The notes: a model not told the origin generated them from the letters alone. A stretch of DNA of 64,000 nucleotides from Chiloscyllium plagiosum (GCF_004010195.1 NC_057716.1:78735630-78799629), one strand, 5' to 3'; numbered from the stretch's first letter, positions 897 to 52,381 are shown. Translations and numbers: made by a program.

Positions 897-1101
897 GGAG
901 AAAGTGAGGTCTGCAGATGCTGGAGATCAGAGCTGGAAATGTGTTGCTGAAAGATTTCAACCTACTGCGAATCCTCTTACAAGGATGCCTTCCTTGAAGA
1001 AGCTCTCTTCCTCCATTCCTGAAGGGCTTATGCCCGAAACGTCGATTCTCCTGTTCCCTGGATGCTGCCTGACCTGCTGCGCTTTTCCAGCAACACATTT
1101 C
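897..1101. mobile_element. Penelope-derived fold-back element with degenerate hammerhead motif, 14-bp TSD
   Basis: Inverted arms ctggaaatgtgttgctg / cagcaacacatttccag; ctgaagggcttatgcccgaaacgtc (HHR core with small deletion); TSD cagtaatttataga at 883-896 and 1102-1115. Confidence 0.8.
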
Positions 1102-2049
1102 CAGTAATTTATAGAATCAGACTCACAGCATTTGCGCTCATAGCAACCAGGAAAGGTAATCAAGTATCCAATAGACATCACTTATTAAGTAGAAATGCTT
1201 TTAAGATAAAAAAACATAGCCATGACTTATGGTAAGACTGCTCTGATAAGGGAAGCAATGATAGAAACTCACCTTGCAAGCTAATTTAAAGTTTTCTATT
1301 CAATATCAGATAGAAGGAGAAAAAGTTTGACTTACATCAGTTTATATATATGTGTGAGTGTGTGCATAAACATAGATATATGTGTATAATAGTAGTTTTA
1401 ATGTATTTGACATCAAGACATTTAGTTGGATTCCTGTAGACAGTTTTAGACACGGATACTGTCTTCAAGGAACACTCTTGGAAAAACCTTAATGGAGGTC
1501 TCTTTTGCCAGCCAATTCTACATTGGTTATTTAGAAAAGATTAGAAATGTCTGATCCCATAATAATTAAGACTCAAGGTAATTATCGTTACACATTATAT
1601 ACACCTTTAAATTCTAAATGGACCAACAAATTAATATTACATTAACTGAATTCCTATGGATAGATAGCCTTAGACACCAGGAAAAGCTCCTTGCTAGCAG
1701 GGAGAATTGAATAACAAGTGCAGAATTCATCACTGTTGGAATGTGGTTGTGAAAGCCCAAGAATAGGTGGTAAAGGAGGCTAGTAAACATCATGAGATCA
1801 TGGGAAGACTTAAGATTGTCCATCAATTTGTCCATCATTAACCATGCAGTCACATAATTAACCTGACTGGATGTGTATGTAATCAATGAACAATATCAGT
1901 TTGTAATTGTCAAAGGCAGGCTGAAAACAAATACACAAAAATTTATGTCTTTCCTTTGTTCAGAGAAGCAGCTTCTGAACCCCCAGAGGTTTGTTCCCAC
2001 TGGTGTAAAATCAATAAACTTTTTGATGTTGGAAGTAGATCCCCGGTGT

Positions 2050-2530
2050 TGAGTGATTTATTTAGTCATTCCACCCAAACAAAGAAAGTGTCCCATGAGG
2101 AAAAATTAAATGGATCAGGCTTTTGCTCTTAGGAGTTAATAAAAAAAAAACAACAAATGCTTCACAGAGCTTGACAAGCAAGATGCAGGAAGCAAGTTTC
2201 CCCTGGTTGGATAGGCATCCAGATCCAGGGGACATAGCTTCAGAACAAGGGTAGATCTTTTCGGACTATGCTGTGCAAGGAAAGTTTTTAGATGTGTGAG
2301 GAAAACTTTTATTTTTACATGGATGGTGGCAGGTGCCTAGAATGTGCTGGCAGTGGAGGTGGTACAATCAAACATGATAACAACATTTAAGAGGCACTTA
2401 GACTGTTACATGAACAGGTAGGAAATAGAGGGATAAAGACCATGTGCAAGCAGATGAGATTAGTTTAAATGGCATGATAGCACAGAAATAGTTGCCAAAG
2501 GGCCGGTTCCTATGCTGTACTGTTCTAGGT
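2050..2530 (+). mobile_element. Decayed CR1 LINE 3' fragment(s)
   Basis: Remnants of FFTQRVV..WN.LP coding sequence and a 3' tail gccaaagggccggttcctatgctgtactgttcta. Confidence 0.7.
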
Positions 2531-2757
2531 TGGGAAAAACATCTTCACAGAGAGAGTGGTGAATCTTTCAAATTCTCTGCTTTGAGAGCTATTGCAGTGA
2601 TTGGAACCAAATGGATCTCATTGACTATGAGGTTGTTAAGTTGGGCAAATCAGGGAGTCCTGGCTGACAGATAGAAACAGGAGATTCAGGAGTCTCCTGA
2701 TTATAGGGACTGGGTTTGAGCTGGCTGGTCACCAGCCCATGCACAAACCCCATATAA

Positions 2758-5217: not shown

Positions 5218-5685
5218 TGAAGGCAATTCATTCTTCTATTAATAGCTTACTCTGTCATTCTAATGTATCAAGGTCTGATCTGTTCTAACTGAATTTCCCT
5301 CACTGATTAATTATTCTTTATCGATATTTCTGTTGTAGTTTATGGAATCTGATATTAATTTTAAAAATCAGTCACTTCAAGGAATGATAAGATAAACATT
5401 TTGCTAAAGTTAAAGCTTACACATGTGAAGGCATGTTATTAGCTTTATTAGGAGTTAGAAGATAGCATGAAAGGATAGGGATATGTACTCACATTGAAAG
5501 AAATACACACCAGGGAAATGATATATTGGCCTTGAAATGAATGCAGTGAGGATTATCCAGATGCCACCTGTGTTCTGAGGATTAAATTTTATGGAGAGTT
5601 TAGACAAATTATGCTTTTATTTCCTGGGATAAAGAAGGTTAAGTTGTGATCTTGCTCAGATTTTTAGGATTGTGATATGACAGGT

Positions 5686-6073
5686 AAAAGCACAACAACT
5701 ACTGGCAGATATCAACACCTACCAAATGAAGGAATTTGACCCCACACCACAACTCACCAATAGAATAAATAACACACTAAGGAATCTACAAAAAAAAGGA
5801 CAGATAACCAGAGCTGACCTACAAAGAATGAAACCGGAAAGCAACAACACCCCCAGATTCTATGGATTACCTAAAGTACACAAACCAGACATCCCACTCA
5901 GACCCATAGTATCACTACCAGGGACACCTTCACACAAACTGGCCAAAGAACGCCAACAGAAACTGAAACACCTGGTCAGCAGATCCAAACACTCTATACA
6001 ATCAACAAAGGAATTCTTGGACATCATCAGAAATACACACATAGACAAAGAAGAAACCATGATATCATTCAAC
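5686..6073 (+). mobile_element. Penelope-like element reverse transcriptase fragment
   Basis: ORF ..TPRFYGLPKVHKPDIPLRPIVSLPGTP..MISF is the hallmark PLE RT N-terminal motif; it runs into the assembly gap. Confidence 0.92.
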
Positions 6074-6573
6074 NNNNNNNNNNNNNNNNNNNNNNNNNNN
6101 NNNNNNNNNNNNNNNNNNNNNNNNNNNNNNNNNNNNNNNNNNNNNNNNNNNNNNNNNNNNNNNNNNNNNNNNNNNNNNNNNNNNNNNNNNNNNNNNNNNN
6201 NNNNNNNNNNNNNNNNNNNNNNNNNNNNNNNNNNNNNNNNNNNNNNNNNNNNNNNNNNNNNNNNNNNNNNNNNNNNNNNNNNNNNNNNNNNNNNNNNNNN
6301 NNNNNNNNNNNNNNNNNNNNNNNNNNNNNNNNNNNNNNNNNNNNNNNNNNNNNNNNNNNNNNNNNNNNNNNNNNNNNNNNNNNNNNNNNNNNNNNNNNNN
6401 NNNNNNNNNNNNNNNNNNNNNNNNNNNNNNNNNNNNNNNNNNNNNNNNNNNNNNNNNNNNNNNNNNNNNNNNNNNNNNNNNNNNNNNNNNNNNNNNNNNN
6501 NNNNNNNNNNNNNNNNNNNNNNNNNNNNNNNNNNNNNNNNNNNNNNNNNNNNNNNNNNNNNNNNNNNNNNNNN
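6074..6573. other. Assembly gap (500 N)
   Basis: Run of N. Confidence 1.
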
Positions 6574-7150
6574 CGGTGTTTGTAGTGGTCTGTCCCTGCC
6601 GCTTCCGGTTGTCAGTTTCAGCTGTCCGCTGTAGTGGTTGGTATATTGGGTCCAGGTCGATGTGTTTGTTGATGGAGTTTGTGGATGAATGCCATGCCTC
6701 TAGGAATTCCCTGGCTGTTCTCTGTCTGGCTTGCCAGACAGGAAGACAGCTAACAATCCGCATACATGAACATCAACTAGCCATGAAACGACACGACCAG
6801 CTATCCTTAGTAGCCACACATGCAGACAACAAGCAACATGAATTTGACTGGGACAACACTGCTATCATAGGGCAAGCCAGACAGAGGACAGCCAGGGAAT
6901 TCCTAGAGGCATGGTATTCATCCACAAACTCCATCAACAAACACATCGACCTGGACCCAATATACCAACCACTACAGCGGACAGCTGAAACTGACAACCA
7001 GAAGCGGCAGGGACAGACCACTATAAACACCGGAGGAAACATCAAAGAAGCACTTCGCAGAAGGTTCCCAAGCACTGATGATGTCGCCTAGCCAGAGGAC
7101 GAAACGTTTGCAATAAAAACTTCCAGCTCGGCGAACAGAACCACAACAAA
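6574..7150 (+). mobile_element. Penelope-like element 3' part (GIY-YIG C-terminus and pLTR) with an inverted duplicated arm
   Basis: 6736 onward encodes QTGRQLTIRIHEHQLA..REFLEAW..SINKHIDL; 6574-6735 is the near-exact reverse complement of 6871-7032. Confidence 0.92.
7072..7111 (+). ncRNA. Minimal (dimer-type) hammerhead ribozyme motif in PLE terminus
   Basis: GCA-CUGAUGA-U-GUC..GAC-GAAACGUU-UGC: core CUGAUGA/GAAA, stem II GUC/GAC, stem I GCA/UGC, loopless palindromic stem III (ACGU). Activity untested. Confidence 0.7.
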
Positions 7151-8480: not shown

Positions 8481-8862
8481 GATCTGGTTTGTCTTCAAAC
8501 CATTTTATTCAGTCTTAATTTCTAATTTTGAATGTTGGTTCATCATTTAATTATGAACCTTGGAAGTAAGTTCCACTACATCACAACTCACTATCTAAAT
8601 AACTTCCTTGTGCCTTCTCATCTAAATACCTTACAATTAATGTCATATTTCTACTTTACCGATGCTCTGTGGTTGCTTCTATCAACTCTGTTTTGTTGTG
8701 TTATCAATTTAAGCATAACCTTCACAAATACAAAACCCTCCCCACTGTATTATTTTTGAAGTTTCAATATCCTTCTTATAGCAGTAGAGGACAATACTCC
8801 AGAACACACTGTCCTCTCACTGATGTAAAATCATACTAATGCCATGAGTCCATCATTACCCT

Positions 8863-9522
8863 GTGACATCCCTGAAAGTTGCCACCCAGGTGGATAGTAC
8901 TGTTAAAAAGGCATACAATGTGTTAGGTTTAATTGGTAGAGGGATTGAGTTCCGGGGTCGCAATACCATGCTGCAACAATACAAAACACTGGTGCAGCCA
9001 CACTTGGAATATTGTGTACAGTTCTGGTCCCCATATTTTGGGAAGGATGTGGAAGCATTGGAAAAGGTGCAGAGATTTACCAGGATGTTGCCTGGTCTGG
9101 AGGGAAGGTCTTATGAGGAAAGGCTGAGAGACTTGAACCTGTTCTCATTGGCAAGAAGAAGGCTAAGAGGGGATTTGATGGAGACATACAAGATGATCAG
9201 AGGATTAGATAGGGTAGACAGTGAAAGTCTTTTCCCTAGGATGATGATGTCAGTGTGTATGAGGGGGCATAACTACAAATTGAGGGGTGATAGTTTGAAG
9301 ACAGATGTCAGAGACAGGTTCTTTATGCAGAGAGTGGTAAGGGCGTGGAATGCACTACCTGCTCAGGTAGTTAACTCAGCCACATTAGGGAGATTTAAAC
9401 AATCCTTAGATAAGCACATTTTAGGATAATGTAGTAGGGGGATGAGCTGAGAATAGTTCACAGGTCGGCGCAACATCGAGGGCCGAAGGGCCTGTTCTGC
9501 ACTGTATTGTTCTATGTTCTAT
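8863..9522 (+). mobile_element. CR1 LINE 3' end (RT C-terminal region and tail)
   Basis: ORF with YKTLVQPHLEYCVQFWSP, RRRLRGDL, FFMQRVVRAWNALP; tail ggccgaagggcctgttctg..(tgttcta)n. Confidence 0.93.
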
Positions 9523-9569
9523 TTTCAGTTATGAAGACAAGTTGGTGATGTTGTGGCTGCTTTCTTTCA

Positions 9570-12756: not shown

Positions 12757-15119
12757 ATAAGGGATAGCATTACAGCTGTGCTGAGGGAGAATATTCCTGG
12801 AAATATATCCAGGGAAATTATTTGGGTGGAATAAGAAAGGAATGATCACCTTATTGGAATTGTATTATCACCCCCTAATAGTCAGAGGGAAATTGAGAAA
12901 CAAACTTGTAAGGAGATCTCAGCGATCTGGTAGAATAATGAGATAGTTCTGGTAGGGGATTTTAACTTTCTAAACATAGACTGGGACTGCCATAGTGTTA
13001 AAGGTTTAAATGGAGAGGAATTTGTTAAGTGTGTACAAGACAATTTTCTGATTCAGTATGTGGATGTACCTCCCAGAGAAGGTGTAAAACTTGACCTACT
13101 CTTGGGAAATAAGGCAGGGCAGGTGACTGAGGTGTCAGTGGGGGGGCACTTTGGGGCCAGCGACCATTATTCTATTAGCTTTAAAATAGTGATAGAAAAG
13201 GATAGACCAGATTTAAAAGTTGAAGTTCTACATTGGAGAAAGGCCAATTGTGATGGTATCAGGCAAGAACTTTCGAAAGCTGATTGGGAGCAGGTGTTCA
13301 TAGGTAAAGGGACGGCTGGAAAATAGGAAGCCTTCAGAAATGAAATAATGAGAATCCAGAGACAGTATATTCCTGTCAGAGTGAAAGGAAAGGCTGGTAG
13401 ATATAGGGAATGCTGGATGACTAAAGAAATTGAGGGTTTGGTTAAGAAAAAGAAGGAAGCATATGTAAGGTACAGACAGGATAGATCGATGAATCCTTAA
13501 AAGTATATAAAGGCAATAGGAGTATACTTAAGAGGGAAATCAGGAGGGCAAAATGGGGACATGAGATAACTTTGGCAAATAGAATTTAGGAGAGTCCAAA
13601 GAGTTTTTACAAATACATTAAGGAGAAAAGGGCAACGAGGGAGAGAATAGGGTCCCTCAAAGATCAGCAAGGCGGCCTTTGTGTGGAGCCACAGAAAATG
13701 GGGGAGATACTAAATGAGTATTTTGCATCAGTATTTACTGTGGAAAAGGATATGGAAGATATAGACTGTAGGGAAATAGATGGTGACATCTTGCAAAATG
13801 TCCAGATTACAGAGGAGGAAGTGCTGGATGCTTTGAAATGGTTAAAGGTGCATAACTCCCCAGGACCTGATCAGGTGTACCCGAGAACTCTGTGGGAAGC
13901 TAGAGAAGTGATTGCTGGGCCTCTTGCTGAGATATTTGTATCATCGATAGTCACAGGTGAGGTGCCGAAAGACTGGAGGTTGGCAAACGTGGTGCCACTG
14001 CTTAAAAAGGGCGGTAAAGACAAGCCAGGGAAATATAGACCAGTGAGCTGACCTCAGTCGTGGGCAAGTTGTTGGAGGGAATCCTGAGGGACAAGATGNN
14101 NNNNNNNNNNNNNNNNNNNNNNNNNNNNNNNNNNNNNNNNNNNNNNNNNNNNNNNNNNNNNNNNNNNNNNNNNNNNNNNNNNNNNNNNNNNNNNNNNNNN
14201 NNNNNNNNNNNNNNNNNNNNNNNNNNNNNNNNNNNNNNNNNNNNNNNNNNNNNNNNNNNNNNNNNNNNNNNNNNNNNNNNNNNNNNNNNNNNNNNNNNNN
14301 NNNNNNNNNNNNNNNNNNNNNNNNNNNNNNNNNNNNNNNNNNNNNNNNNNNNNNNNNNNNNNNNNNNNNNNNNNNNNNNNNNNNNNNNNNNNNNNNNNNN
14401 NNNNNNNNNNNNNNNNNNNNNNNNNNNNNNNNNNNNNNNNNNNNNNNNNNNNNNNNNNNNNNNNNNNNNNNNNNNNNNNNNNNNNNNNNNNNNNNNNNNN
14501 NNNNNNNNNNNNNNNNNNNNNNNNNNNNNNNNNNNNNNNNNNNNNNNNNNNNNNNNNNNNNNNNNNNNNNNNNNNNNNNNNNNNNNNNNNNNNNNNNNNN
14601 NNNNNNNNNNNNNNNNNNNNNNNNNNNNNNNNNNNNNNNNNNNNNNNNNNNNNNNNNNNNNNNNNNNNNNNNNNNNNNNNNNNNNNNNNNNNNNNNNNNN
14701 NNNNNNNNNNNNNNNNNNNNNNNNNNNNNNNNNNNNNNNNNNNNNNNNNNNNNNNNNNNNNNNNNNNNNNNNNNNNNNNNNNNNNNNNNNNNNNNNNNNN
14801 NNNNNNNNNNNNNNNNNNNNNNNNNNNNNNNNNNNNNNNNNNNNNNNNNNNNNNNNNNNNNNNNNNNNNNNNNNNNNNNCTGTTTCACACAGAGGGTGGT
14901 ACGTGTATGGAATGAGCTGCCAGAGGACATGGTGGAGGCTGGTACAATTGTAACATTTAAGAGGCATTTGAATGGGTATATGAATAGGAAGGGTTTGGAG
15001 GGATATGGGCCGGGTGCTGGCAGGTGGGACTAGATTGGGTTGGGATATCTGGTCCACATGGACAGGTTGGACCAAAGGGTCTGTTTCCATGCTGTACATC
15101 TCTATGACTCTATGACTCT
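12757..15119 (+). mobile_element. HER1/CR1 LINE ORF2 pseudogene (endonuclease C-half, linker, RT, 3' tail), spanning a gap
   Basis: VLVGDFNF..IDW, LDLLLGN, SDH endonuclease motifs; EILNEYFASVFT, SPGPDQVYPRTL, DWRLANVVPL..YRPVS RT motifs; (ctatgact)n tail; in-frame stops. Confidence 0.95.
14099..14879. other. Assembly gap (781 N)
   Basis: Run of N. Confidence 1.
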
Positions 15120-17200: not shown

Positions 17201-17325
17201 ATCTGTCTTGGACCAACATTATATGTCCATTATAGTTCATCGATAACCACTCTGTGACATATGTCATTCAACTAACGCTCGATCAACCTACCTTTCTGCT
17301 GCCCTCCACTTTCCCCTCTAGAAAA

Positions 17326-17491
17326 CGTGGAGGAGCTGATGTTGGACCTGGGTGGACAAAGTTAAAAATCACACAACAGCATGTTATAGACCAGCGTTCG
17401 GAGATACCCGATGAAGGAGCAGTGGTCTGAAAGCTATTGCTTCCAAGTAAACCTGCTGGTCTATAACATGCTGTTGTGTAATTTTTAACTT
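17326..17491. mobile_element. Short PLE-type fold-back element (distinct family) with hammerhead remnant
   Basis: 37-bp inverted arms 17359-17395 / 17455-17491 (1 mismatch); loop has ccgatgaaggagcagtggtctgaaagcta; imperfect TSD ccctctagaaaa / ccctccagaaaa. Confidence 0.72.
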
Positions 17492-17644
17492 CGCCCTCCA
17501 GAAAAGATCTCTGCAGCTTTACAGTTCAAATGAAATAGCCAAATTGGCTAACATTTTCTTTTCATTATGTCACTTTTTGAGTTATTTTTGCTGTTGCAAT
17601 TTCAATCATTATAGGAAAGGGAGAGAGATGGTCAAAAGCAGTTC

Positions 17645-20782: not shown

Positions 20783-21061
20783 CAATGTTCTATCTTGTTT
20801 TTCATAGTCAACACTCAGTAGAATACTTTGCACCAAATGGAACGTCTGCTCTATAATTCTTTTTGACTAATTTTCTAAGATTTGTATCCACTGATAGTTG
20901 GACTGCTCACTCAAGAGTCAGTTTCTCTTTTGATTGAAGAAGTTTGAGTTCATGAAGTAAAATCATAGAGAAGAAGCCCTACTGGGCTCTTTGCAATGAT
21001 ACCATTCCTGCTCTGTCCCCCTTGACTCCACCTTTAGCCTTGTTGTCGTTAGCTTACTGGC

Positions 21062-21911
21062 TAAGAGTGGTGCTGGAAAAGCACAGCATTTCAGGCTGCA
21101 TCCGAGGAGCAGGAAAATCGACGTTTCGGGCAAAAGCTCTTCATCAGGAATAGAGGCAGAGTGCCTGCAGGGTGGAGAGATAAATTAGAGGAGGGTGGGG
21201 GTGAGGATAAAGTAGCATAGAGTACAATAGGTGAATGGGGGTGGGGATGGAGGTGATAGGTCAGAGTGGAGGGTGGAGTGGATAGGTGGAAAGGAAGATA
21301 GGCAGGTAGGACAAGTCATGTCTGCTAGGAGGCGTCTAGTCTCCCCAATGTAGAGGAGACCGCATCGGGAGCAACGGATACAATTAATGATATTGGTGGA
21401 CGTGCAGGTAAAACTTTGATGGATGTGGAAGGCTCCTTCAGGGCCTTGGATGGAGGTGAGCGAGGAGGTGTGGGCGCAGGTTTTGCAGTTCCTACTGTGG
21501 CAGGGGAAGGTGCCAGGACAGGAGGGTGGGTAGTTGGGGAGCATCAACCTAACCAGGTAGTCACGGAGAGAACGGTCTTTGCGGAAGGCGGAAAGGGGTG
21601 GGAACAGAATTGTATCCCTGGTGGTTGGGTCCGTTTGGAGGTGGCGGAAATGTCGTTGGATGATTTGGTTTATGCGAAGGTTGGTAGGGTGGAAGGTGAG
21701 CACCAGAGGGGTTCTGTCCTTGTTACGGTTGAAGGGATGTGGTCTGAGGGCGGAGGTGCGGGATGTGGACGAGATGCGTTGGAGGCATCTTCAACCACGT
21801 GGGAAGGGAAATTGCAGTCTCTAAAGGAGGAGGCCATCTGGTGTGTTCTGTGGTGGAACTGGCCCTCCTAGGAGCAGATACGGCGGAGGTGTCTACAGTC
21901 ATTGTTTTTAC
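21062..21911 (-). mobile_element. Neptune-type Penelope-like element fragment (thumb, Cys-rich linker, GIY-YIG, pLTR with HHR), 13-bp TSD
   Basis: Minus strand LRRICS..FHHRTHQM, CHSRNCKTCAH, CTSTNIINCIRCSRCGLLYIGETRR; HHR ctgatgaagagcttttgcccgaaacgtc; TSD ttagcttactggc at 21049-21061 and 21912-21924. Confidence 0.9.
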
Positions 21912-22609
21912 TTAGCTTACTGGCCAGACTACTGAATCCATGCTGAAAATGGTGCAGCCTGACACTGAACTATTGCAGCCAACAGCCTAACACAAGGATC
22001 ACAGCAAAGTATCTGAACTGTCCTTTACAGTTTCCTAACAGGATGAGTAACCATAATCTTTTTGAATTGTGGAGTAGGCTGGATGGGCTCAATTGCGTGT
22101 TTCTGCTTCTATTCATACATTAATGTGTTTTCATTATGTCACCACTCAACATGCTTTTCATAAAGGCTTCAGTCTGGGCAAGGGTACTTACAGAATAGCC
22201 AATTAAGGTAAACATCAGGGTGAATAGTTTAAAATTTGTATGTTCTGTTGTTCATGTCATGTTTTTAATGTTTGTTTTGTTTTAGGAAACAGCAAGTGAT
22301 TGTGTTAATCAGGGAGTGACAAAATTGGTGTTCAGTCTCATATTTCATTTATAAGAAAGGGGCTGAAAGAATTGAATGTTGATGGTAGACTTCTTAAATG
22401 ATCGTCGTGGAATTTTAATATTTGTCATTTTAGCCTGCAAATTGACATACACCTTTTCAGATAAATATTATGATTAACTTAATCATCAGCGACTTCACTA
22501 TCCCTCAGCTTCCCAGTGAACACTTAAACTCCTTAATCATTTTGTTTTTTCTCTGCTAAGGATGAGCTGAGAGCTAGTGTATATCAAAAACATATTGTAG
22601 CCATCTTGT

Positions 22610-26560: not shown

Positions 26561-26675
26561 CCTACTGCACCTAGTATTTCCAGGCAGTCTCCCATCCATG
26601 TACTAACCAAGCCTGAGTCTGCTTAGTTTCTGAAATTAAAACCGAATCATGCGTTTTCAGATGAGTATGATGTTC
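26561..26675 (-). pseudogene. 5S rRNA pseudogene or 5S-derived segment
   Basis: cctactgcacctagtatttccaggcagtctcccatccatgtactaaccaagcctgagtctgcttagtttc aligns by eye with the reverse complement of vertebrate 5S rRNA (box C ggatgggagac), with many substitutions. Confidence 0.85.
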
Positions 26676-30938: not shown

Positions 30939-32348
30939 ACACACACACACATGAGTCTTGAAAGAAATATATTAAGGTTTCTGTTGACATACCATCCTCA
31001 AAGCTACTGCTAAACATCGTCACAGGCATTATTTTAAAAAAATGTATTTGTGGAAGATTCAATGTTTCAATGATATTCCTCTTTCATGTACTTCAGCCTA
31101 CAACTTGACTTGTAAATAACTATATACATGAACTGATCAGCTGCATTTGATTCGATGTCTTGATGATTTTGTGCCAAATCCACATTTTTTGAGCTTCACA
31201 TTCCTTTTGATGTAATCAGAACCATGTATTTCAATATTTGATGTGTAAACTAAAAGTAAAATGATAAAACGCTTCAAATTTCCTGCTTTGCTCCCTGTAA
31301 GACACTTGATCTGTATACGGACATGCAGATTAAATGTCACATTACAGTTTATAACAGTACCTTGAACATCATGCATTGTTTTCTCATTAGCGTTTTAGAG
31401 GCTCCTATTCAGAGTAACTTTTTTTAATACTATGGACAAAATACTTTACAGGTCATTTATCGACAATCCTGCATCAAAAAGGTTAAGGGTTAGCGAGTAG
31501 AATCTTCAATTGCTTCATAAATTTGGCATAGTTTCTGATAATTGTTTAACTGCTTAGAGTTCCACAATGCAGCATATTGTGAATTGATGTGATCATGAGA
31601 TAGTGACATGTAGTTTGATATAACAGTCATATTAGCAGTCATGTCCAAGAGACTATTAAGAAAGAATCCAGTAGTTGGTACTCGTGAGAGTTGTATTTAT
31701 AGAGATTAGTGTTATATATAATAGCGTAAATAAGAGAATTTAACTACTCTATGAGTGTTCAATGCCAGCCACTTTTATGCAAGGGTAAACCATTTATTGA
31801 CCACATAAGAAAGATAAGGGTAGCTCTCTTTCTAGAATACAAAATAGAACTCAGAGTCAAAAGCTTCATAGTAACACTGTACAAGCAATTGGAGTTCATA
31901 TATACTATGTGAAGCATCCTTTCTGGAAGATTTTTTTGGAAATAAATGTTCATATTGGGGTCCTGGTCAGATTTGCAGTAATCTTCCCATTTTTTTCTCC
32001 AATATTTCTTCCCTAAAGCTATTGAAGATGAACAAGGAAACATCATTCCCTTCCAGCTTGTTTACCCCAGAAAACTCATCTCTTTCAATACAAATAACTA
32101 TTTTGCTCAGAATGTCTTTAAAAAAACTGAACAAATAATATATTACTGTTGATTTTCTCCTGAAGTAAACCTGAACATTTTCAAATGTAAGCTAATGCAT
32201 TTGCTACAACCTTCAAATATCTTTACTGTGCACATTAGTATTTTCTGCTGTATTCATGAATAAATAAATTGTAAACATTGTGGCCTGAGTGCCATCTTTA
32301 ATAGTTTAACATTTTCTTCTGATTTGTTGCTGGATTTTTGGTGTCATA

Positions 32349-32437
32349 AAGTGGGGTGCTGGAAAAGCACAACCTGTCAGGCAGGAACCGAGGAACAGGA
32401 GGGTTGCCATTCCAAGCTTAGGCTCTTCATCAGGAAT
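32349..32437 (-). mobile_element. Neptune-type pLTR fragment
   Basis: gtgctggaaaagcacaacctgtcaggcag..ctcttcatcaggaat. Confidence 0.75.
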
Positions 32438-32460
32438 GTGCTGAAAGATTATAATTGACT

Positions 32461-32700
32461 AGGAGAAAGTGAGGACTGCAGATGCTGGAGATAAGAGCAG
32501 AAAGTGTGGCTCTGGAAATGCACAGCTGCTCAGGCAACATCTGAGGAGCAAGAGAGTCGATGTTTCAAATGTAAGCTCTTCATCAGGAATGCTCAAAACG
32601 TTAGCTCTCCTGCTCCTGGGATGCTGCCTGACCGGCTGTGCTTTTCCAGAGCCACAGTTTCTGCTCCTATCTCCGGCATCTGCAGTCCTCACTTTCTCCT
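32461..32700. mobile_element. 240-bp palindromic PLE-derived element (two full pLTR 3' arms)
   Basis: Starts aggagaaagtgaggactgcagatgc and ends gcatctgcagtcctcactttctcct; centre is at the hammerhead (tcatcaggaat|gctcaaaacgtt). Confidence 0.88.
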
Positions 32701-32920
32701 GCTGGATTATTAGTTATAGGGCTGGATTATAAATTTTGGGTATGAGTCTGTTTCCATCTGGCTGGCTCACTTTAATGCTTCGAGTGACAGCCTTTTAATT
32801 ATTATGAGGTGGGACTTCTGTCCATTTCCAGTAGAAAGCCCTACGTAATGGAGTTCCTATCAATTGCATACCAGCAGCTCTGTTCCACACCAGGACCAGT
32901 CATTACTGCCAGTATTGTAA

Positions 32921-33030
32921 CCCTGAAGAAAGGTTGCACCCAAAATGTTGACTTCTCCACTTCCTGATGTTGCCTGGCCTGCGGTGTTCTTCCAGCCACC
33001 TGCTTGTCTACCTCGGATTCCAGCATCTGA
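32921..33030 (+). mobile_element. PLE terminus fragment starting at a decayed hammerhead
   Basis: cctgaagaaaggttgcacccaaaatgttgac..ttccagcatctg. Confidence 0.65.
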
Positions 33031-38290: not shown

Positions 38291-39547
38291 CTCAAAGTGG
38301 CTTTATGGATCTGAGAGTGAGTATTGGAAAGGAAGTTTGTTACAGATTTCCTTATATAGTGGCATTTTTTTGAAAAATAAATTATGAGTAAAAAATTATA
38401 CTTTCAGACGATCAATTAATTTTTGTTTGCTTTCCCCAATAAACTCTACTTAGCTGAGTCGGAGGTTAGCAGATGGACAGATGTTTGCATATTTCCAGCA
38501 TGAATTAAAGGCCTTTGTTCGGCTTCATTATTTGGAGTTTGAGATTCAATGTTAAAATGAGATTAACTTTGATCTTTTCAATGCAAGTTGATCAACTACT
38601 CTTGTTGCTGGCAGTTAGAAAGCTAGATAGTAGCCTAATTCCTCTGGGTCAATGGAAATGTGATAGAATTTGGGAGATGTGTGTCAGGACCCTATGGATT
38701 CCATGCTCCACAAGCATACACCCATAAAGTTTAAACTTGTGATGGGCTGACTTCTTAGGACCCTAAGCTCAGGCTGTAGACTTGGCGTTGAAGCATTGAA
38801 CTTACCTTCATAACATGATACAGTTTAATAGCTGGTCTGATTTGGTGACAATTTAACAAAACATAACTTTCTAAGACAACCAATTTCTCAATTGCCCTTC
38901 ACGCTGATCAAACATGACTCCTCCTGCTGACTATCCACTTCACCCATTCCACTCACTGATTCACTAATTCATTCACAGACTAATGGATTTGGATATGGCA
39001 TCTATTGTAGTGAAAGGGATGTGTAACCTCCTTTTCTATCTCTTCTTTTATCTAACCATTTTCTCCATGAATAGCTGTTCTGATCCTTTGATGCTTCTGA
39101 GAGATCAGAAGATATGACAAAAAATAAGTAAGATGGTCTGGCTGCATTAATCTTCACAAGTGGTGTCAACATGCACAGTATCAATTTTGACCAGAAGATT
39201 TGGATCGTAATATTTTTTGAACATCTGTTAAAAATATACATTGTATACAATTCTAAATACAAGCTTGTCTGTTTAAGGCCAGAAACAAAATGGTTTTAAG
39301 ACTTTAGTTACTCTTCATGACCCTGGTTTGCTTTCTCTGTCCAAAATGATATTTAATTCATCAGCTAGAAACATGAATTATTCTAAAAACAGACTTTTTA
39401 AAGCAGATTGTAAAGATGTCTTGTGATTGCAGTCAAAGATGGCTACTTTGTATCGCACATTCTAATCTATTGACAATTTCATGGGCAATGCAAAATATCT
39501 GTATCTTCTGTCCCATTAACAAGCATTAAGGTAATCTCCTGAGATGG

Positions 39548-39702
39548 GTAAAAACAATGACTGCAGATGCTGGAAACCAGATTCTGGATTAGAGTGCTGC
39601 TGGAAAAGCACAGCAGTTCAGGCAACATCCGAGGAGCAGGAAAATCGATGTTTCGGGCAAAAGCCCTTCATCAGGAATACAGGCAGAGTGCCTGAAGGGT
39701 GG
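39548..39702 (-). mobile_element. Neptune-type pLTR 3' end with hammerhead motif
   Basis: Minus strand attcctgatgaagggcttttgcccgaaacatcga..gcagtcattgtttttacc; same family as 21062-21911. Confidence 0.85.
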
Positions 39703-42330: not shown

Positions 42331-43611
42331 GTAATCTGGCAATTCTTTTTTCGAGGCAGCAGCAAACTGGCAATTAAGGGGAATTATTGCTTGTTAAATT
42401 TCATGTTGCTGCCTTTAATTGTCTTATTATTATCCATCTTCCTATCTTACCAAATGCGACAAACAAGCTTGACATTGAGAAAACTTGACAATGAAAGTTC
42501 AGAACGGATGCCTGGCAACAATCATCTTGTTGTGATAGCTGTACACACGTATACACAGACACACACAGACATAGTCTTTAAGAGTCCTCATGGCATGTCT
42601 TCATTCCACTTACAGGACTGTACTGCAGTTAGCACACTGTAAACCCAGGGACTGGATCAGGTTGCATCACTGTCATGGTGCTTTACTTACTCAGAGACTA
42701 CATGGACACTCACAGCATCACTGTTTTATTTTTGGACCTTGCCCTTTCAGTATAATACTTCTGTTTTGCCTCATTGTTTAGCATAGACACAAAGGCAGAA
42801 GCTTATCATGGCTACCAGCAGTCTTCAGTCAAATCAAGGAGGATAGATATGTCAGGGGAAACCAGCAGAGTATCAAGGGCAGTCTCCAAGCTAGTCCTGG
42901 AGCTTGTATGCAGTCAGTCAGCCAGTCAGCCAATCAGGCCAGTCAGAGTTAGAATCCTGTACTCAGAAAGGGTGAGAAGCTGAATGCAATCCATCTATCT
43001 TGGCTTTTGCTGCCCTATTGGGGGCTGTTCTTTCTCTTGGAATGGGAGAGGAGCAGGCATTAAGGCATTAACACGGTTAATATATTGGTGTAGGTTGCGA
43101 ATGTGTCCCAAACAAGTCTGTAGGTACAGCAGTGAACATACAGGGTTAATGGTGTCGAGGGTTGGATCGGGTGATAGCAAGCAATGGAAGATGTTGTAGG
43201 CAGCAAGGTTGGTGGCACATAAACCTTGGTGGGAAGTGAATACCGCAGCAGCAACTGAGTGAGTGAGTGAGGTATCGGAGTGAAGGTAATGGTGCTTACA
43301 CATGGAGAGTTGGAAAGTAAGTGATCTTCTTCTTACAGTGCTGGACGTTCCTCCAGACAGCCCAGACAGCTTTAACCTGGTGGAAACCTTGGACCAGACT
43401 GGCATGGTGTGGTGTCACACTGCTGGAACCTGGGGAAAGAAGACATCCTGCACGACACCAACCTGTCCAGCAGCACCTCTAGGTCAACACCCACAAAGCG
43501 AGGTGGCAACTTCCCATTTCTTCTGTGTCTCAGGCAAATGTCAAGAATGATGTATGGCAGCTCCAGACTGACAGTGCTTGTCCAAGTGCAAAACAGGCTT
43601 TTAAAAATTGT

Positions 43612-43800
43612 AGCTGAAAATGTGTTGCTGGAAAAGCGCAGCAGGTCAGGCAGCATCCAAGAAGCAGGAGAATCGACGTTTCGGGCATGAGCTCCCAAAA
43701 CGTTGATTCTCCTGCTCCTTGGATGCTGCCTGACCTGCTGCACTTTTCCAACAACACATTTCCAGCTCTGATCTCCAGCATCTGCAGTCCTCACTTTCTC
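43612..43800. mobile_element. PLE-derived fold-back element, 14-bp TSD
   Basis: Inverted arms meet at cgtttcgggcatgagctc|ccaaaacgttg (HHR stem II); TSD cttttaaaaattgt at 43598-43611 and 43801-43814. Confidence 0.88.
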
Positions 43801-44033
43801 CTTTTAAAAATTGTCAGAACACAAGGAATGCTGGTTAATTCTGTCATAACCTGGCTGTGGCAAGTAGCTTTAGGAATAGTGTTTGGTAAAATGGGTCTGG
43901 AATCGGTCAATAGGAATGCCATAGGTGCTAGTAGGTGGTTAATGAGGTTAGTTGGTAAGATGAAGAGAGAAAACTCACTACTCCTTGTGTCAAAAACTCT
44001 CCAATAAATAAGAGGTAACCCCTTGAGATCAGA

Positions 44034-45125: not shown

Positions 45126-45232
45126 AACTTGAACCTTTACTGTGACTAGCTGAGGCAGCTGAAAAGAGACAAACTAGTTCACCTCTTCTCAGCTGGGCTT
45201 TGCACACCTTTCATTATTTCAGGCTACATAAA

Positions 45233-45545: not shown

Positions 45546-45548
45546 GGA

Positions 45549-46607: not shown

Positions 46608-46926
46608 ATTAGATCAGATTACTTACAGTGTGGAAACAGGCCCTTCGGTCCAACAAGCCCATACCAACCCTCTGAAGAGTAACCCACCCAGACCCATTCC
46701 CCGACATTTTCCCCTTCACCTGACACTACGGGCAATTTAACATGGCCAATTCACCTAACCTGCACATTTTTGGACTGTGGGAGGAAACCAGAGCACCCGG
46801 AGGAAACCCACGCAGACACGGGGAGAATGTGCAAACTCCACACAGACAGTTGCCTGAGGCGGGAATTGAACCCAGGTCTCTGGCGCTGTGAGGCAGCAGT
46901 GCTAACCACTGTGCCACCGTGCCACC
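46608..46926 (-). mobile_element. HE1 V-SINE (left arm of inverted pair)
   Basis: Full-length minus-strand copy. Confidence 0.95.
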
Positions 46927-46935
46927 GGGCTGCCT

Positions 46936-47248
46936 GGCACAGAGGCACAGTGGTTAGCACTGCTGCCTCACAACGCCAGAGACTCGGGTTCAATTCCCAC
47001 GTCAGGCAACCGTCTGTGTGGACTTTGCACATTCTCCCAGTGTCCGCGTGGTTTCCTCCGGGTGCTCTGGTTTCCTCCCACAGTCCAAAAATGTGCAGGT
47101 TAGGTGAATTGGCCATGTTAAATTGCCCGTAGTGTCAGGTGAAGGGGAGAATGTCGGGGAATGGGTCTGGGTGGATTGCTCTTCGGAGGGTCGGTGTGGA
47201 CTTGTTGGGCCGAAGGGCCTGTTTCCACACTGTAAGTAATCTAATCTA
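46936..47248 (+). mobile_element. HE1 V-SINE (right arm of inverted pair)
   Basis: Full-length plus-strand copy about 10 bp from the head of the left copy. Confidence 0.95.
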
Positions 47249-48460
47249 AAAAAAACATAATAATCTATATTCCAAAAAATATTCACAAAGGGAAAAATTT
47301 ATTTGACAACATTCCTAATTCCCAACAATTCACTGCCAGCTCTATCATATTGGGGCAATGCATGGTGTGATGCTGTCAGTTTTGCAGATCATGGGAAATT
47401 AAATATTATCCCTCCACCTCAGAAAATTTCACATTAATCCCAAAATATTGACTGTCACCAGATTACTGGTATTTTGTAGATATTCGGCTCAATGAAAAGT
47501 CCACTCTTGAGCAAGTAGCATTGCAACTGACCTTATAATTCATCTTTCCAACAGAAGTTACTTTGCACCATTCTCGAGCTTGTTTGCAGATCCATGCATT
47601 TGGGAACAAAAATATAATGCGAAGTATTGTTGTCAAAGACACAATAGTTTAGGATTAGATAGATAGCAGTAATAAATAGTATTTTTTCCTAAGAACTACA
47701 AACCTGGATATAACAAATTTAATTATGTGATTAAATGGGATGTGTAATTATTCCAGTAATTAGATTGGAAGGCCAAATTCATTGTAGAACCTTTGTGAAT
47801 GTATGCATCTCCTTATTTCTAAGAGAGATTTAAATTGTAATACGATTTCCAAAATTAATTTACTTCAGTATATTTATGGCATCATAGTGCTCTTTGCTTC
47901 AGTACTATTGGACTAATTGGTCCAGTGAGTAATTCTCTGCAATCAGTATATTTAATTGGTGCAATGGGAGAGAAATGTGTCCTTTTGTTCCGAGATGGTC
48001 TCTGAAGCTTTGGATTGCTTTTAGCAATTTGGTTCAAGTTTTAGCTTTGAAAATCATTGCACTTCATGTTTCTAAAGCACCTTATGTCTCACCAAAAGTT
48101 AAAAAAAACTTATAATTATCCATGGTGCACATTTTCACTCATGCTTTTTTCTTCAAAAGTATCAACAAATCACCTCAGTTATGAATATTTAAGATCAGTT
48201 TAATAATTGAAATATTTACAAAATTTAATGTTGCATGCATACACACTAAGCAAAGTTTTACTCTTGCAATGTAAACAGTAACCCAGTAATTTTAATGGAC
48301 TATTGTCAACATGACAGGAAAGTGAGATCAATTTCTCTGCAACATTTTCCTGAATTTAATAATTGAATTCATGAGATGATCATGTGGTAGACTCTAATTT
48401 TCACAGTGAGGACATGATCATTTCAAAGGAAGTCAACAAGTAGTCCATAAAGATACTTAC

Positions 48461-48501
48461 CTGTGGCTTCTAGTCTAATTTTCTTGGAAATTCTATCCAC
48501 T
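48461..48501 (-). other. Candidate 41-nt exon
   Basis: Minus strand cttgtttttcacAG|agtggat..gccacag|GTAAGT; only one frame is open (VDRISKKIRLEAT). Confidence 0.35.
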
Positions 48502-51500
48502 CTGTGAAAAACAAGTTTAACCTGTGAGAATGGCTTACAGTTAAAGTTTTGAGATGATAGTGCTGCTCTATCCTGCCCTGACACTAACTAAGTGGATGGA
48601 GTGCAGAGGAAAAATATCTGTTCCCATTTTTCACTGAGTAGTGCGGCACTTAAAGTATATGTTTGGCTTTTCTGGTACTTGCTCTTTAAAACCTGAATTC
48701 AATTTATTTACTTAGAGGCAAGCTGAAAGTTTTATGATCAATCCACATTTGTTTACTTTATAGCCTTCGAAAAATACCACTACTATTTTATACTTTGTGT
48801 TAGATGTCATGTTCCAAACTGCATCATCTATCACTACTTTAACAATATAGTTTACTTGAAAGCATTATGAGTTGATGGAATTCAAATTCCCCTTGCATGT
48901 TGTGGATTTCATTCAGTTGATCCTCTCCAGAGCCAATAACAACTACTCCACAATGATGGTTGAGGATTCCCCAATCTCTTTCCTGATCACCTCAAGTAAA
49001 GAGATACTTACAGTCAAACCAACACCCTCCCCTTATTCTGTAACATCACTTTTTATGTTCGTACTTACTTTTCAGATTCATTATTGAGTGATGGGCAACA
49101 CTTCTCTGTTTCACTATCCGTGATTTGTCAGTAATAGTCCTGCCCAAATACTTTCAATTTCCAAGGCAGACAGTAGAAATGCATTGGTTGCTTGAGGTTT
49201 TGTTGCCATCATCCTTTCACAGCAACAAATCTTCATGAACCACTCACTACATGTCATCTGAAGGTGTGCAGAAAGAAAGCCTGCCTCACTTCCTAAAACA
49301 ATTGAGTGCTCCCAAAAGATTTTAATTCGGATTGCCCCTGTAATGATGATGATATACTTGTGACTGAATTTTAATCCTATCTTCCTGTTTTTGCAAATAA
49401 AAGAGCTCTTCCAATAATGTGCAAGATTTTCCTGTATTAATCAAAACATTAGGATGTCTCAGCCATTAGCTGTTCCCAAGATGCAATCACTTTTGCTCCA
49501 CTCTAACCACATTTCAGCCCTGAGGGTAGAAAATAAGGCCTTATTGAGGATTATATGTTCATTTTTTAATATAAATTGGACAGACTTTATTGAAGATTGA
49601 TGATCTTCTCTCAATATATGTATCATACTTTGCATGTTATCCTCATTAATTATGGTAATGGTATCCATTTTGTGGAAGTACATTGATCTTATCCAATCTT
49701 TATATTATAATTACATGGACATCCTGTCTAATTCGGATACTTCCGATAACTTCCATTCTATCTCTGACATCAGATTTTTAAACAAATAATATTAAAGTTT
49801 TTGGGCAGAACATATTGGAATACTAATATTAGACTACTGTCCTGGTGTTATCTGCTTCCACTATTAGACTCATCGCTAAATGTTTGACTCTAAATTCAGA
49901 TAAATTATTTGAATGTTGTAAATGTCCTCATATTTTAAGTGATGAACAGTGACAGCGAACTGATAAGGTTTGCAAATTACATTTTGTCACAGTGCAGTGA
50001 ATAAAATTCCATCTTAACTTATCAGTTTGAGTAGCTTTTTGTAATACATTTGTTCATCCATTGATGGATTGCCTCAAATTTGTTTGAATGTGCGCTTCTA
50101 CTCAAATCAAATTGTAAAAATGGTAAAACTATAGTGTTGAGACAACTCAGCGAGGATTGATGTTTTATACCATGATGGGCACCTCTAATTAAAATATTCA
50201 ACAGTCTCAAATTGATTGTAGCAGTTGTAACTTTCAGTTTCATATTAATCTAAAACTGAATACACGCCTACCAAAATGGGTCTATATTATTTAACAGAGC
50301 TCACCAATGCAACTTGAGAAATCCAACAAAGAACGCACTTTGTAGTTCAAAGCAAAACTCTCAATCACGGGTGCTTTAATTCTGGCACAGAATTAAGTAC
50401 TTACTTTTTTTTAAATCACGTTAAAATATTGACAATGTGGCAATCTTTGATTTCTTTATAAGTACGTACCAAGGGAGAATCATTTATTATTTATTTCTTG
50501 GAAAAGTTTATTACTGCCCTTTTTTTCAGACACAGTGGATGACTGCAAAATACTAAAAACCTAAACTGGAAGACCAAACAGAAACTTGCCCTCACATGTG
50601 ATTGTTATAGTCTGGGCAGATTGCCATTTGTCCAATTACATACCAAATTTCTGGGTGGAAAGTGGATGCAAGAATGTTGAATCACCCCCTTGATACCTTG
50701 CACTCTCCTGTGGAGCAAACTCTATACACGAGTCATCACATTGTTCGAGTCCTGTTAGCTGAATAGAGACTCTGTCACATGACGCCATCCATGTTCTGCC
50801 TTCAAGTTGATCTTATTGGTTCTTGCAAATCAGGGCACATTTATAAAAATAAAATTGCCTCAAGTCATCAAATAACTATATTAAAGATGTATCCTCGCTA
50901 TTTCCATAATTGCATTGCAGAGTGAGCAATATTATTAAACTAGTGGAATGTGTTATTAAAACTGTACAGCTGAGTAGAAGCTGCTCTAAATATCATGGCA
51001 ATAATGAAATTTATGAATAATGTAGGGCTTGACATCAGAGCTTCAGTGCATTGTGCAAATTTCAGGCTTTCTCTTAATGCATTTGATAGTGAGTACTTGG
51101 AGGGATTATTAACAAGGCAGACTGTCTCTAAATGTCTAAAGACTTTGACAGTTTCAGATCTTTTAAAATGCTCAATCTTTTCCTGTGGTTTAAAACCATT
51201 TTAAAAGTAAATTACGGCAGATAGTATGCAGAATTATTTTGCCCTTAAATAAGTATGAAGCATATTTATATGCTACTAGGATGAGAAGTCTAATGTAGAG
51301 CATGACTGAAAGTAAACAATAAATAAAATCATATATGATCATTGAAAAAACAATATTGTACTGAACTATTTTCATCAATGATTTTGAGCTACCAAAAAAC
51401 TGAAATACAGAGTGTGTCAATAGAATAAAGGACGCAGTACAAGATAAAAATATATTCACTTAATAACTTACAAAGGAAGGTTGACATTCCATAGTTACAT

Positions 51501-52174
51501 TTATTCAAATATGGACAGAAGAGTGAACATAATTTAATAATGCAGCAACTTCGATGTAACTCTGAGGAGAATAGTCTTAGAAACTCTTCTTTTAGACAAG
51601 CAATTAGGTCAAGTTCACTTTACAGTATCAGCCTGTACTCCTTTATAATTAATCTGAAGATGAGATTGAGACTGAAGATTCAGCAACTTTGGGAAAAAGT
51701 GTACAAAGAATTAAACTAGTCTATTGTCTGAGAAAGGTACTCAATTAAATGATTATTGTATATTTCCAAACAAACATATAAGAGTAGCTTATTTTAAATT
51801 GTTCTTTCTGAAAACTGGGGTAGATGAAGGGAGAACATTTGCTGCCAAAGGGAGGCATATTTGACACCATCCTACCTCTCTCAGATTTCACTTACACAGC
51901 CTTCAAGTCAAAAGGGAGATTGCAGGATAACAAAGTATAATATATTAATAACATTATTCAGATGAGTTTTTAACCAAGGATTCTGCCATGGTCACTGGGA
52001 CAATCGTGCACCAATACATATCTTCCTCAGTGAAACTGATCAGCTGCAGAGGCTTTGGTCATTGAAACTAAGAAGTTACAGTCATGACCTGGCGGTCGAA
52101 TGCTGTTCACATGACTCTTTCTCAGAGTGAGCATTCGCTGCTTGGCAAGTGGTTGACAGCTAATGGACATCAAC

Positions 52175-52381
52175 AAGGCAAAAGTGAGGACTGTAGATGC
52201 GGGAAACCAGAGTTTAGATCAGAGTGGTGCTGGAAAAGCACAGCAGGTCAGGCAGATTCCGAGAAGCAGGAAAATCAACGTTTCGGGCAAAAGCCCATCA
52301 TCAAGATTTCCGTCGATTTTCCTGCTCCTCAGATGCTGCCTGATCTGCTGTGCTTTTCCAGCACCACTCTGATCTAAACTA
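52175..52381. mobile_element. PLE-derived fold-back element, ~17-bp TSD
   Basis: Arms agtttagatcagagtggtgctggaaaagcacagcag / ctgctgtgcttttccagcaccactctgatctaaact; TSD agct(a/t)atggacatcaac at 52158-52174 and 52382-52398. Confidence 0.88.

What the first reader, a model, noticed from the sequence alone, without database searches (positions are those of the whole stretch)
897..52381. Family of MITE-like fold-back elements built from hammerhead-bearing Penelope termini, with long TSDs
Seen: five short elements (897-1101, 17326-17491, 32461-32700, 43612-43800, 52175-52381) each consist of two inverted copies of a PLE terminal sequence. Four have clear or near-clear 12-17 bp flanking direct repeats. 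The same terminus is physically attached to a GIY-YIG-coding PLE at 21062-21911. Established: PLE pLTRs carry minimal hammerhead ribozymes and often insert as inverted pairs. Inference: these look like DNA-transposon MITEs but are retrotransposition products. Each has different arm lengths, so each fold-back probably forms anew at insertion. At about 1 per 13 kb they would be a large genome-wide source of hairpin RNA or cruciform DNA.
Basis: partly seen in the sequence, partly recalled or inferred. Interest (0 to 1): 0.7.

Follow-up and report, generated by a model that had tools for sequence, protein, structure and literature searches.

The report
Capped-end Penelope fold-back insertion stubs
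These roughly 200-base mirror-image inserts are short landings of Penelope-type jumping genes, not a DNA-transposon family: one is absent from a related species, which keeps a single copy of its 14-base landing site, and their inner ends pile up at one spot with an excess of G, likely because two short DNA copies, primed from the two cut ends of the chromosome, ran off the capped front end of the element's RNA and were joined head to head.

Summary
The inserts are real, with corrections. E1 hardly folds back. E2 is a separate family. E3 has a third arm. Only 1 of the 10 listed arms keeps a full hammerhead core.

In 155 arbitrary 10-kb stretches I found 103 tails-out pairs and 0 tails-in (about 1 per 14-15 kb). 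Target duplications scored in 51 of 99, against 0 of 294 shuffled, mostly 14-16 bp. Usually one arm carries the known 34-37-nt Penelope tail. There were 83 junction types among 92 pairs, which rules out MITE amplification. E1's empty site exists in two runs of a related organism.

Inner ends pile up just before the hammerhead, not at its cut site. The base before that spot is G 5322, A 2478, T 1022 times genome-wide (template base C); one base upstream G is 990 and A 830. This fits copying of an RNA cap.

The architecture is known (inverted pLTR, tail, TSD). Two-ended priming with run-off at a capped start is inferred. The scan has noted this before on other DNA (156 findings, at least 21 genomes). 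Hairpin-RNA function is untested.

The parts
883..896 (+). E1 left target-site duplication (14 bp)
   Evidence: 14 of 14 identical to 1102-1115; a single copy at the empty site in runs X10 and X11
897..952 (-). E1 tail-bearing (long-end) arm, subfamily A, only the last 56 nt of the terminus
   Evidence: reference +69..+125, counted from the C of the CUGA core
953..1014 (+). E1 internal piece: leader and first codons of the PLE ORF, which normally follow the tail; likely a template jump
   Evidence: ATG at +162 in subfamily A
1015..1101 (+). E1 short-end arm, starting at the predicted RNA start; hammerhead core has a small deletion
1102..1115 (+). E1 right target-site duplication
17314..17325 (+). 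E2 left TSD (12 bp, 1 mismatch to 17494-17505)
17326..17393 (-). E2 tail-bearing arm, family F2 (unrelated in sequence to the other four)
17406..17493 (+). E2 short-end arm from just before a mutated hammerhead core
21049..21061 (+). TSD of the coding PLE fragment (13 of 13 with 21912-21924)
21062..21911 (-). 5'-truncated, internally deleted PLE copy: Cys-rich linker and YIGET motif (open stretch 21320-21790), 3' UTR, intact hammerhead core, short 3' end
32328..32339 (+). candidate left TSD of the three-arm E3 unit (matches 32700-32711, 1 mismatch)
32462..32591 (-). E3 tail-bearing arm with the only intact hammerhead core among the ten listed arms; inner end at -5
32589..32699 (+). E3 second tail-bearing arm (inner end +14)
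39547..39702 (-). solo tail-bearing terminus (subfamily B1) with intact core; no TSD found
43598..43611 (+). E4 left TSD (14 of 14 with 43801-43814)
43612..43692 (-). E4 short-end arm (+10..+91), no CUGA core
43694..43800 (+). E4 tail-bearing arm (+17..+125), no CUGA core
52158..52174 (+). E5 left TSD (16 of 17 with 52382-52398)
52175..52306 (-). E5 tail-bearing arm (-2..+128), core mutated
52311..52381 (+). E5 short-end arm (+24..+94)

Best explanation
These are short insertions of Penelope-like retroelements, each with its own junction and most with a 14-16-bp target duplication, likely made when the element's protein cut both strands of the target, primed one cDNA from each cut end at the two internal start sites of its RNA (with tail and without tail), and the two cDNAs likely ran off the capped 5' end of the RNA, just ahead of the hammerhead, before being end-joined head to head. 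Shown: insertion with duplication (empty site); tails-out orientation; one tail per pair; varied junctions; a fixed inner boundary; a position-specific G excess. From established work: the Anolis PLE protein cuts and extends both strands, starts at two internal sites that delimit the tail, and is predicted to be a dimer (PMC11167929); an extra G marks cap copying at full-length L1 junctions (PMC11702581). Inferred: that the boundary is a capped transcription start; that the 5' copy of the start sites (only 90-130 nt from the RNA front) is used, giving strong-stop-like stubs; that the arms are primed separately, from the same or sibling RNAs; that microhomology or small patches seal the middle. 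When a cDNA jumps from the RNA front onto another RNA, pieces like E1's 62-nt insert would result. The hammerhead is likely a passenger in these stubs.
For: Empty site: one contig in each of runs X10 and X11 (organism B, two studies) goes from 882 directly to 1102, leaving one 14-mer; an organism A contig in X5 spans 1079-1414 with no differences. Census of 155 arbitrary 10-kb stretches: 103 tails-out simple pairs, 0 tails-in; TSD score >=9 in 51 of 99 against 0 of 294 shuffled, with 34 of the 51 at 14-16 bp; 65 of 103 pairs are long+short, 1 long+long, 1 short+short. Tail length is 34-37 nt in six references. Inner ends: 117 of 325 arms (identity >0.88) end in the 9 nt from -6 to +2; 12 end in the 6 nt around the hammerhead cut, against a mean of 9.9 in other 6-nt bins. 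Base before ATTCC in subfamily A (template C): G 5322, A 2478, T 1022; one base further upstream: G 990, A 830. In 40 consecutive G hits the upstream contexts differ, except for one likely duplicated pair. In 4 of 16 solos the TSD ends right before a G that the right TSD copy lacks (2 more weakly). In 15 of 23 fold-backs the G lies in the seam outside the other arm, and in 3 of these it is the only inserted base. Either arm can reach further 5': tail arm 21, tailless arm 36, within 7 nt 35, of 92. Arms are more alike than control pairs of the same subfamily (0.087 vs 0.109 +/- 0.003), and F1 and F2 never mix in one pair.
Against: No RNA 5'-end data: the one raw RNA run laid showed no pile-up of ends and no reads on the unique flanks in about 2 in 100 of the run. 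The G excess is partly explained otherwise: in 8 of 23 fold-backs the G can belong to the other arm, in 8 of 16 solos it also stands in the target, and 1 of 40 is a mutated read-through copy. In the small random sample G at -5 was not significant (11 of 44, p=0.33). It was counted genome-wide for one subfamily only. 11,583 copies of that subfamily run on through the boundary, so the boundary is not absolute. The tailless arm often stops well short of the short site with its TSD intact (19 of 103 are 'long + other'), so its outer end is not always a fixed start site. 48 of 99 pairs have no scored TSD. Unlike PAc and Adineta, the two start sites here lie before the ATG (+162). No RT-bearing copy of this family was recovered. 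Arm ends come from local alignments to my own consensus references and are uncertain by a few bases.
Confidence: 0.7

Rival explanations
1. Self-priming (snap-back): one cDNA or an antisense template folds on itself and is copied back, so the second arm is a copy of the first (proposed in PMC3846280, on an antisense template).
For: Arms are more alike than control pairs. Some junctions are perfect small palindromes (L075). Recurrent junctions use self-complementary bases near the core. Rare variants shared by both arms: 9, against 2.8 +/- 1.7 in controls. The tailless arm's outer end is sometimes variable.
Against: A copy cannot hold sequence that its template lacks, yet either arm can reach further 5' (21 vs 36 of 92), and the tail sits on either. 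3 of 97 pairs overlap by 10 nt or less, and E1 overlaps by about 20 nt. Both arms can end at the same boundary (34 of 92). Rare unshared variants (217) far outnumber shared ones (9).
Confidence: 0.13
2. Two-ended priming holds, but the inner boundary is not a capped start. It would be an RT stop or processing site at the front of the hammerhead, or a microhomology hotspot, with G chosen by end-joining or added without a template.
For: The G can be explained by target or opposite-arm bases in 16 of 40 loci. Many copies read through the boundary. In D. virilis the start lies upstream of an intron whose end maps to hammerhead helix I (PMC2377424, PMC4209133).
Against: RT has already passed the hammerhead when it stops. 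Ends are not enriched at the ribozyme cut. The G excess is specific to one position and is seen as an extra base beside intact TSDs. The site reads like an initiator (YYANWYY, recalled consensus).
Confidence: 0.14
3. True MITEs: a few fold-back founders amplified as units by a DNA transposase or by the PLE machinery.
For: Size is fairly uniform (median 188 bp). Three junction types recur (6, 4 and 2 copies).
Against: 83 junction types among 92 pairs. The two commonest types occur with the tail on either arm, one in three subfamilies, with different outer ends. The two ends are asymmetric. TSDs are long and variable. The best other genomic matches to E2 are about 80% identical.
Confidence: 0.02
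4. Assembly or library artefact (chimeric hairpins).
For: The assembly has gaps, and PLE structures trouble short-read assemblies (PMC8557442).
Against: TSDs, the empty site, arm divergence of 1.5-15% by age class, and opposite-strand joints in all four runs laid, raw reads included.
Confidence: 0.01

Closest known systems
Insertion unit of endonuclease-positive Penelope-like elements (Adineta vaga Pen2/Pen2a, PMC3846280; general scheme in PMC8557442 Fig. 2 legend; passages read)
   Same: Inverted 5'-truncated copy head to head with a direct one, a 30-40-bp tail at one end only, a TSD around the whole unit, a hammerhead in the pLTR.
   Different: Here the unit is usually reduced to two 50-130-nt stubs with no ORF, at about 1 per 15 kb. 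TSDs are 14-16 bp rather than 8-10. Inner ends are fixed at one site with a G excess. The start sites lie upstream of the ATG.
Poseidon of Anolis carolinensis, PAc (PMC11167929; abstract, main text and first part of methods read)
   Same: Two internal reverse-transcription start sites that delimit the tail, cutting and extension of both strands, predicted dimer, hammerhead not needed for insertion in vitro.
   Different: The PAc ORF starts inside the hammerhead and the sites lie 111-118 nt into the ORF. The text read does not derive head-to-head products or run-off stubs. The family here has a Cys-rich RT-EN linker (Neptune-like).
L1 twin priming and cap-derived extra G (PMC11702581; passages read)
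   Same: Both DNA ends prime reverse transcription, discrete 12-18-bp TSDs, end-joined inversion seam, extra G at junctions that reach the RNA 5' end.
   Different: In L1 the second primer anneals by microhomology next to where the first RT has reached, so the two pieces barely overlap. Here both arms cover the same 3'-terminal sequence from two defined sites, which gives a palindrome.
Minimal hammerheads of PLEs (PMC4209133; results and discussion read) and animal non-LTR retrozymes (bioRxiv 10.64898/2026.07.22.740005; abstract, introduction and part of methods read)
   Same: Minimal type I core, no helix III loop, palindromic 15.2-16.2 region; pairs on opposite strands 100-700 bp apart were already noted in Schistosoma.
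   Different: These are not head-to-tail arrays. Most cores here are cut off or mutated, and in a head-to-head pair only one arm is sense in any transcript.
MITEs (defining features recalled)
   Same: Short, non-coding, numerous, inverted ends, TSD.
   Different: Asymmetric ends, no uniform internal structure, long variable TSD, derived from a retroelement.

Membership tests
EN+ Penelope-like element | Inverted 5'-truncated copy adjacent head to head | tested here: met
   103 tails-out, 0 tails-in simple pairs
EN+ Penelope-like element | 30-40-bp tail, usually at one end | tested here: met
   34-37 nt; 65 of 103 long+short, 1 long+long
EN+ Penelope-like element | TSD created on insertion | tested here: met
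   51 of 99 vs 0 of 294; empty site of E1
EN+ Penelope-like element | Minimal hammerhead in the pLTR | tested here: met
   Core present in all six references, intact in 1 of 10 listed arms. Rfam gave no hammerhead hit. Cleavage not testable.
EN+ Penelope-like element | C-terminal GIY-YIG endonuclease linked to the terminus | tested here: inconclusive
   YIGET motif upstream of F1 termini in the window and many loci; Pfam and PDB blank; Atlas leads only. For E2's family no linked ORF was found.
EN+ Penelope-like element | Telomerase-like RT in the same ORF | tested here: inconclusive
   20 loci with the ORF start gave at most 276 aa before a stop or gap; no RT-bearing copy of F1 recovered; the N-terminal piece has no Atlas hit at 0.9 or more
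Neptune clade of PLEs | Zn-finger-like Cys motif in the RT-EN linker (PMC8557442) | tested here: met
   C-x4-C-x2-C ahead of the YIG region, read by eye in 21320-21790(-)
Neptune clade of PLEs | RT phylogeny | not tested
   no RT sequence in hand
MITE | Many copies with the same internal structure | tested here: not met
   83 junction types of 92
MITE | Short fixed TSD and symmetric TIRs | tested here: not met
   TSD 9-28 bp, mode 14-16; tail on one end only
Non-LTR retrozyme | Head-to-tail units each with a complete hammerhead | tested here: not met
   Head-to-head pairs; 51 of 103 with no intact core, 10 with two
Non-LTR retrozyme | Circular RNA | not testable with these tools
   no suitable RNA data

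The most novel reading that the evidence does not exclude
Penelope-like elements insert by symmetric two-ended priming at two internal RNA sites, and their commonest product in this genome is a pair of strong-stop-like cDNAs that copy the RNA cap. About 200,000 such stubs record the transcription start, both priming sites and the stagger of the cut to the base. They would explain the head-to-head inversion, the one-sided tail and, through jumps from the capped end, the making of pLTRs, with no antisense self-priming and no role for ribozyme cleavage.
Probability: 0.6. Interest if true: 0.62.

Novelty: new variant of a known kind. Interest (0 to 1): 0.45.

Why it matters
The PLE insertion cycle is called undefined in the papers read (PMC8557442, PMC11167929), and the one model I found for the head-to-head inversion is antisense self-priming (PMC3846280). 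These stubs give a large, countable record that favours two-ended priming and names an exact predicted RNA start, both testable by CAGE and in the existing Anolis in vitro system. In practice, roughly 220,000 TSD-flanked palindromes (extrapolated from 97 tight pairs in 1.49 Mb) risk being annotated as MITEs or microRNA precursors; E3 hits MIR6457 at 66 bits, well under its 140-bit cut-off. They would also serve as presence/absence markers between species.

Tried and rejected
Rfam: no hammerhead family; only generic hairpin microRNA models below their cut-offs. Pfam, PDB sequences: nothing for the endonuclease fragment. Wholesale conversion between arms: rejected (9 shared vs 217 unshared rare variants); E2's arms do share several changes, which stays unexplained. 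Inner ends at the ribozyme cut: rejected. A third fixed landing site at about +192: it recurs in four other loci, but that search used E1's junction as bait, and one search shows jumps landing all along the ORF start, so only the take-off point is fixed. Linking E2's family to an ORF: the three distant tblastn hits checked were not clearly attached. Expression: no RNA holder was listed; the raw RNA run gave no reads on E1's unique flanks, which is no evidence either way; differences over the repeat come from other copies, so editing could not be judged. Empty sites for E2-E5 were not obtained. SINE control: among 178 SINE hits only 3 adjacent opposite-strand pairs (2 '+-', 1 '-+'), so tails-out pairing is not a general property of repeats here. 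The search of earlier findings by sequence returned nothing. Literature searches found no paper describing these short fold-backs in sharks or cap-G at PLE junctions. The library lacks most subscription papers (for example Arkhipova 2006, Lunse 2017, both recalled, not seen) and Repbase/Dfam notes, and I did not read supplements (PAc Fig. S1-S2 may bear on this).
Full report
OBSERVATION. The five elements (E1-E5) stand at the stated places. Inverted arms are found for E2-E5 but not for E1 at a 25-nt minimum. E1's arms share only about 20 nt and it folds like shuffled sequence (z -1.0), whereas E2-E5 give z -8 to -23. Flanking direct repeats are 14 of 14 (E1), 11 of 12 (E2), 14 of 14 (E4), 16 of 17 (E5), and 13 of 13 for the coding fragment 21062-21911. 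E3 has a third arm at 32350-32438; with it the unit has one short and one long outer end and a candidate 12-bp duplication. E2 has no BLAST match to the others. The window lies in a 3.56-Gb genome.

ANATOMY. Anchored copies fall into subfamilies A, A2, B1, B2, C (together F1) and an unrelated F2. Positions are counted from the C of the hammerhead's CUGA core. Each subfamily has two discrete 3' ends, about +84 to +92 (short) and +121 to +128 (long), 34-37 nt apart. This is the 30-40-bp one-sided 'tail' of PMC8557442 (passages) and PMC3846280 (passages), which PMC11167929 ties to two internal RT start sites. The consensus core matches the minimal hammerhead of PMC4209133. It is intact in only 1 of the 10 listed arms, and 51 of 103 sampled pairs have no intact core. 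Upstream of F1 termini lies a Cys-rich linker with a YIGET motif. Pfam and PDB are blank and the Atlas gives leads only. Downstream of the tail, an ORF starts at +162 in subfamily A. No RT was recovered, and no ORF could be tied to F2, so E2's PLE status rests on architecture.

CENSUS. I took 155 10-kb stretches at round-number positions on the 37 largest contigs (1,488,443 non-N bases). Five further stretches beside the window were left out and included. Of 293 terminus-bearing elements, 103 are simple tails-out pairs, 0 are tails-in, 183 are solo and 7 are multi-arm. Six of the 103 have seams over 45 nt and are mostly partial matches to another family; 97 remain. That is one per 15 kb, roughly 220,000 genome-wide by extrapolation. 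Among the 99 pairs with enough flank, 51 have a TSD scoring 9 or more, against 0 of 294 shuffled flank pairs; 34 of the 51 are 14-16 bp. End classes: long+short 65, long+other 19, other+other 9, short+other 8, long+long 1, short+short 1. The median stem is 61 bp; 23 of 97 are under 30 bp.

FORMED ANEW. In one search (106 pairs, 92 with exactly one tail) there are 83 junction types. The three that recur (6, 4, 2 copies) use 2-3-nt microhomologies; the two commonest occur with the tail on either arm and with different outer ends. E2's best other genomic matches are about 80% identical. MITE amplification is therefore rejected. In runs X10 and X11 of organism B (two studies) one contig each aligns to 882 and continues at 1102, so E1 and exactly one copy of its 14-mer are missing; run X5 of organism A spans E1's right junction without differences. 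It was obtained for E1 only.

THE INNER BOUNDARY. 117 of 325 arms end within -6..+2; only 12 end at the ribozyme cut (26..31), the background rate. The boundary is the A of TCATTCC/CTATTCC, which fits the initiator consensus (recalled). If this is a capped RNA start, copies that reach it should carry an extra G, as full-length L1 insertions do (PMC11702581, passages). My small sample was not significant (11 of 44). Whole-genome exact counts for subfamily A, template base C, are G 5322, A 2478, T 1022, with 11,583 read-through copies. One base upstream the counts are G 990, A 830. I examined hits 2-41 of the G list (the first lay near the contig start and was skipped): 23 fold-backs, 16 solos, 1 mutated read-through. 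In solos the G is extra to the TSD in 4 clearly and 2 weakly, comes with a few other extra bases in 2, and lies within target microhomology in 8. In fold-backs it lies outside the other arm in 15 and can belong to it in 8. So part of the excess has other sources, but a position-specific untemplated G remains. E1's 62-nt insert, and similar joins from many ORF positions to the same boundary, fit a cDNA that jumps from the RNA front to another RNA.

TWO PRIMERS OR SNAP-BACK. PMC3846280 explains head-to-head inversions by self-priming on an antisense template. Here the tail arm reaches further 5' in 21 pairs, the tailless arm in 36, and 35 are level. Three pairs hardly overlap. Arms differ less than matched control pairs (0.087 vs 0.109) and F1 never pairs with F2, so both arms come from the same or sibling RNAs. 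Rare variants are almost all unshared (217 vs 9; control for shared 2.8), so there is no wholesale homogenisation. With PAc cutting and extending both strands from two internal sites, two-ended priming is the simplest reading. Against it, the tailless end is variable in about a fifth of pairs.

CONSEQUENCE. The hairpin-RNA and cruciform idea is plausible for the 53 of 97 pairs with stems of 60 bp or more, but it is untested. No RNA holder was listed, and reads on the repeat come from other copies.

NOVELTY. The layout is known PLE architecture. Nine literature searches found no account of the miniature form in sharks or of cap-G at PLE junctions, within a library that lacks many subscription papers; no supplements were read. 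For PMC2377424, PMC8969392 and PMC6155905 I saw passages only. The scan itself holds 156 similar findings in at least 21 genomes. They agree with my reading, which was written down before I saw them, and they are not independent support. Verdict: new variant of a known kind; interest 0.45.

Noticed in passing
window 46609-47249: Two full-length SINE copies (tRNA-derived shark SINE; label recalled) head to head, arms 90-96% complementary, a 640-bp palindrome with no TSD found. Such pairs are rare: 3 adjacent opposite-strand pairs among 178 SINE hits.
   Followed up: partly
window 5681-7149: A third PLE family: RT-like frame at 5681-6073, assembly gap 6074-6573, inverted endonuclease-end piece 6574-6735, sense piece 6737-7149 with its own hammerhead-like motif near 7075-7110.
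   Followed up: partly
window 26568-26670 (-): 5S rRNA-derived sequence, 41.6 bits against a 38-bit cut-off; pseudogene or 5S-derived SINE head.
   Followed up: no
window 17351-17395 / 17455-17499: E2's two arms share several changes from the family consensus within about 20 nt while differing from each other at only 1 of 27 compared sites: local conversion or a diverged source.
   Followed up: partly
window 21320 region (-): The coding copy breaks off shortly after the YIGET motif and joins the 3' UTR, an internal deletion inside a TSD-flanked insertion.
   Followed up: no
window 32922-33029 (+) and 55431-55531: Older, more diverged hammerhead-bearing termini of a further subfamily.
   Followed up: no
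window 8848-9429, 12934-14051, 55097-56284: LINE-type RT fragments (CR1-like; label recalled).
   Followed up: no
L257-L276: Many copies run from varied points in the ORF start straight into the hammerhead boundary, short head-to-tail joins with a fixed take-off point; likely the step that builds pLTRs.
   Followed up: partly
consensus upstream of subfamilies A and B1: A pyrimidine tract plus AG lies 25 nt (A) and 17 nt (B1) upstream of the core: a possible 3' splice site like the D. virilis 5'-UTR intron, which would imply a second, upstream start.
   Followed up: no
L208 and L209: Near-identical loci on two contigs sharing insertion and flank (segmental duplication or assembly duplicate).
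   Followed up: no
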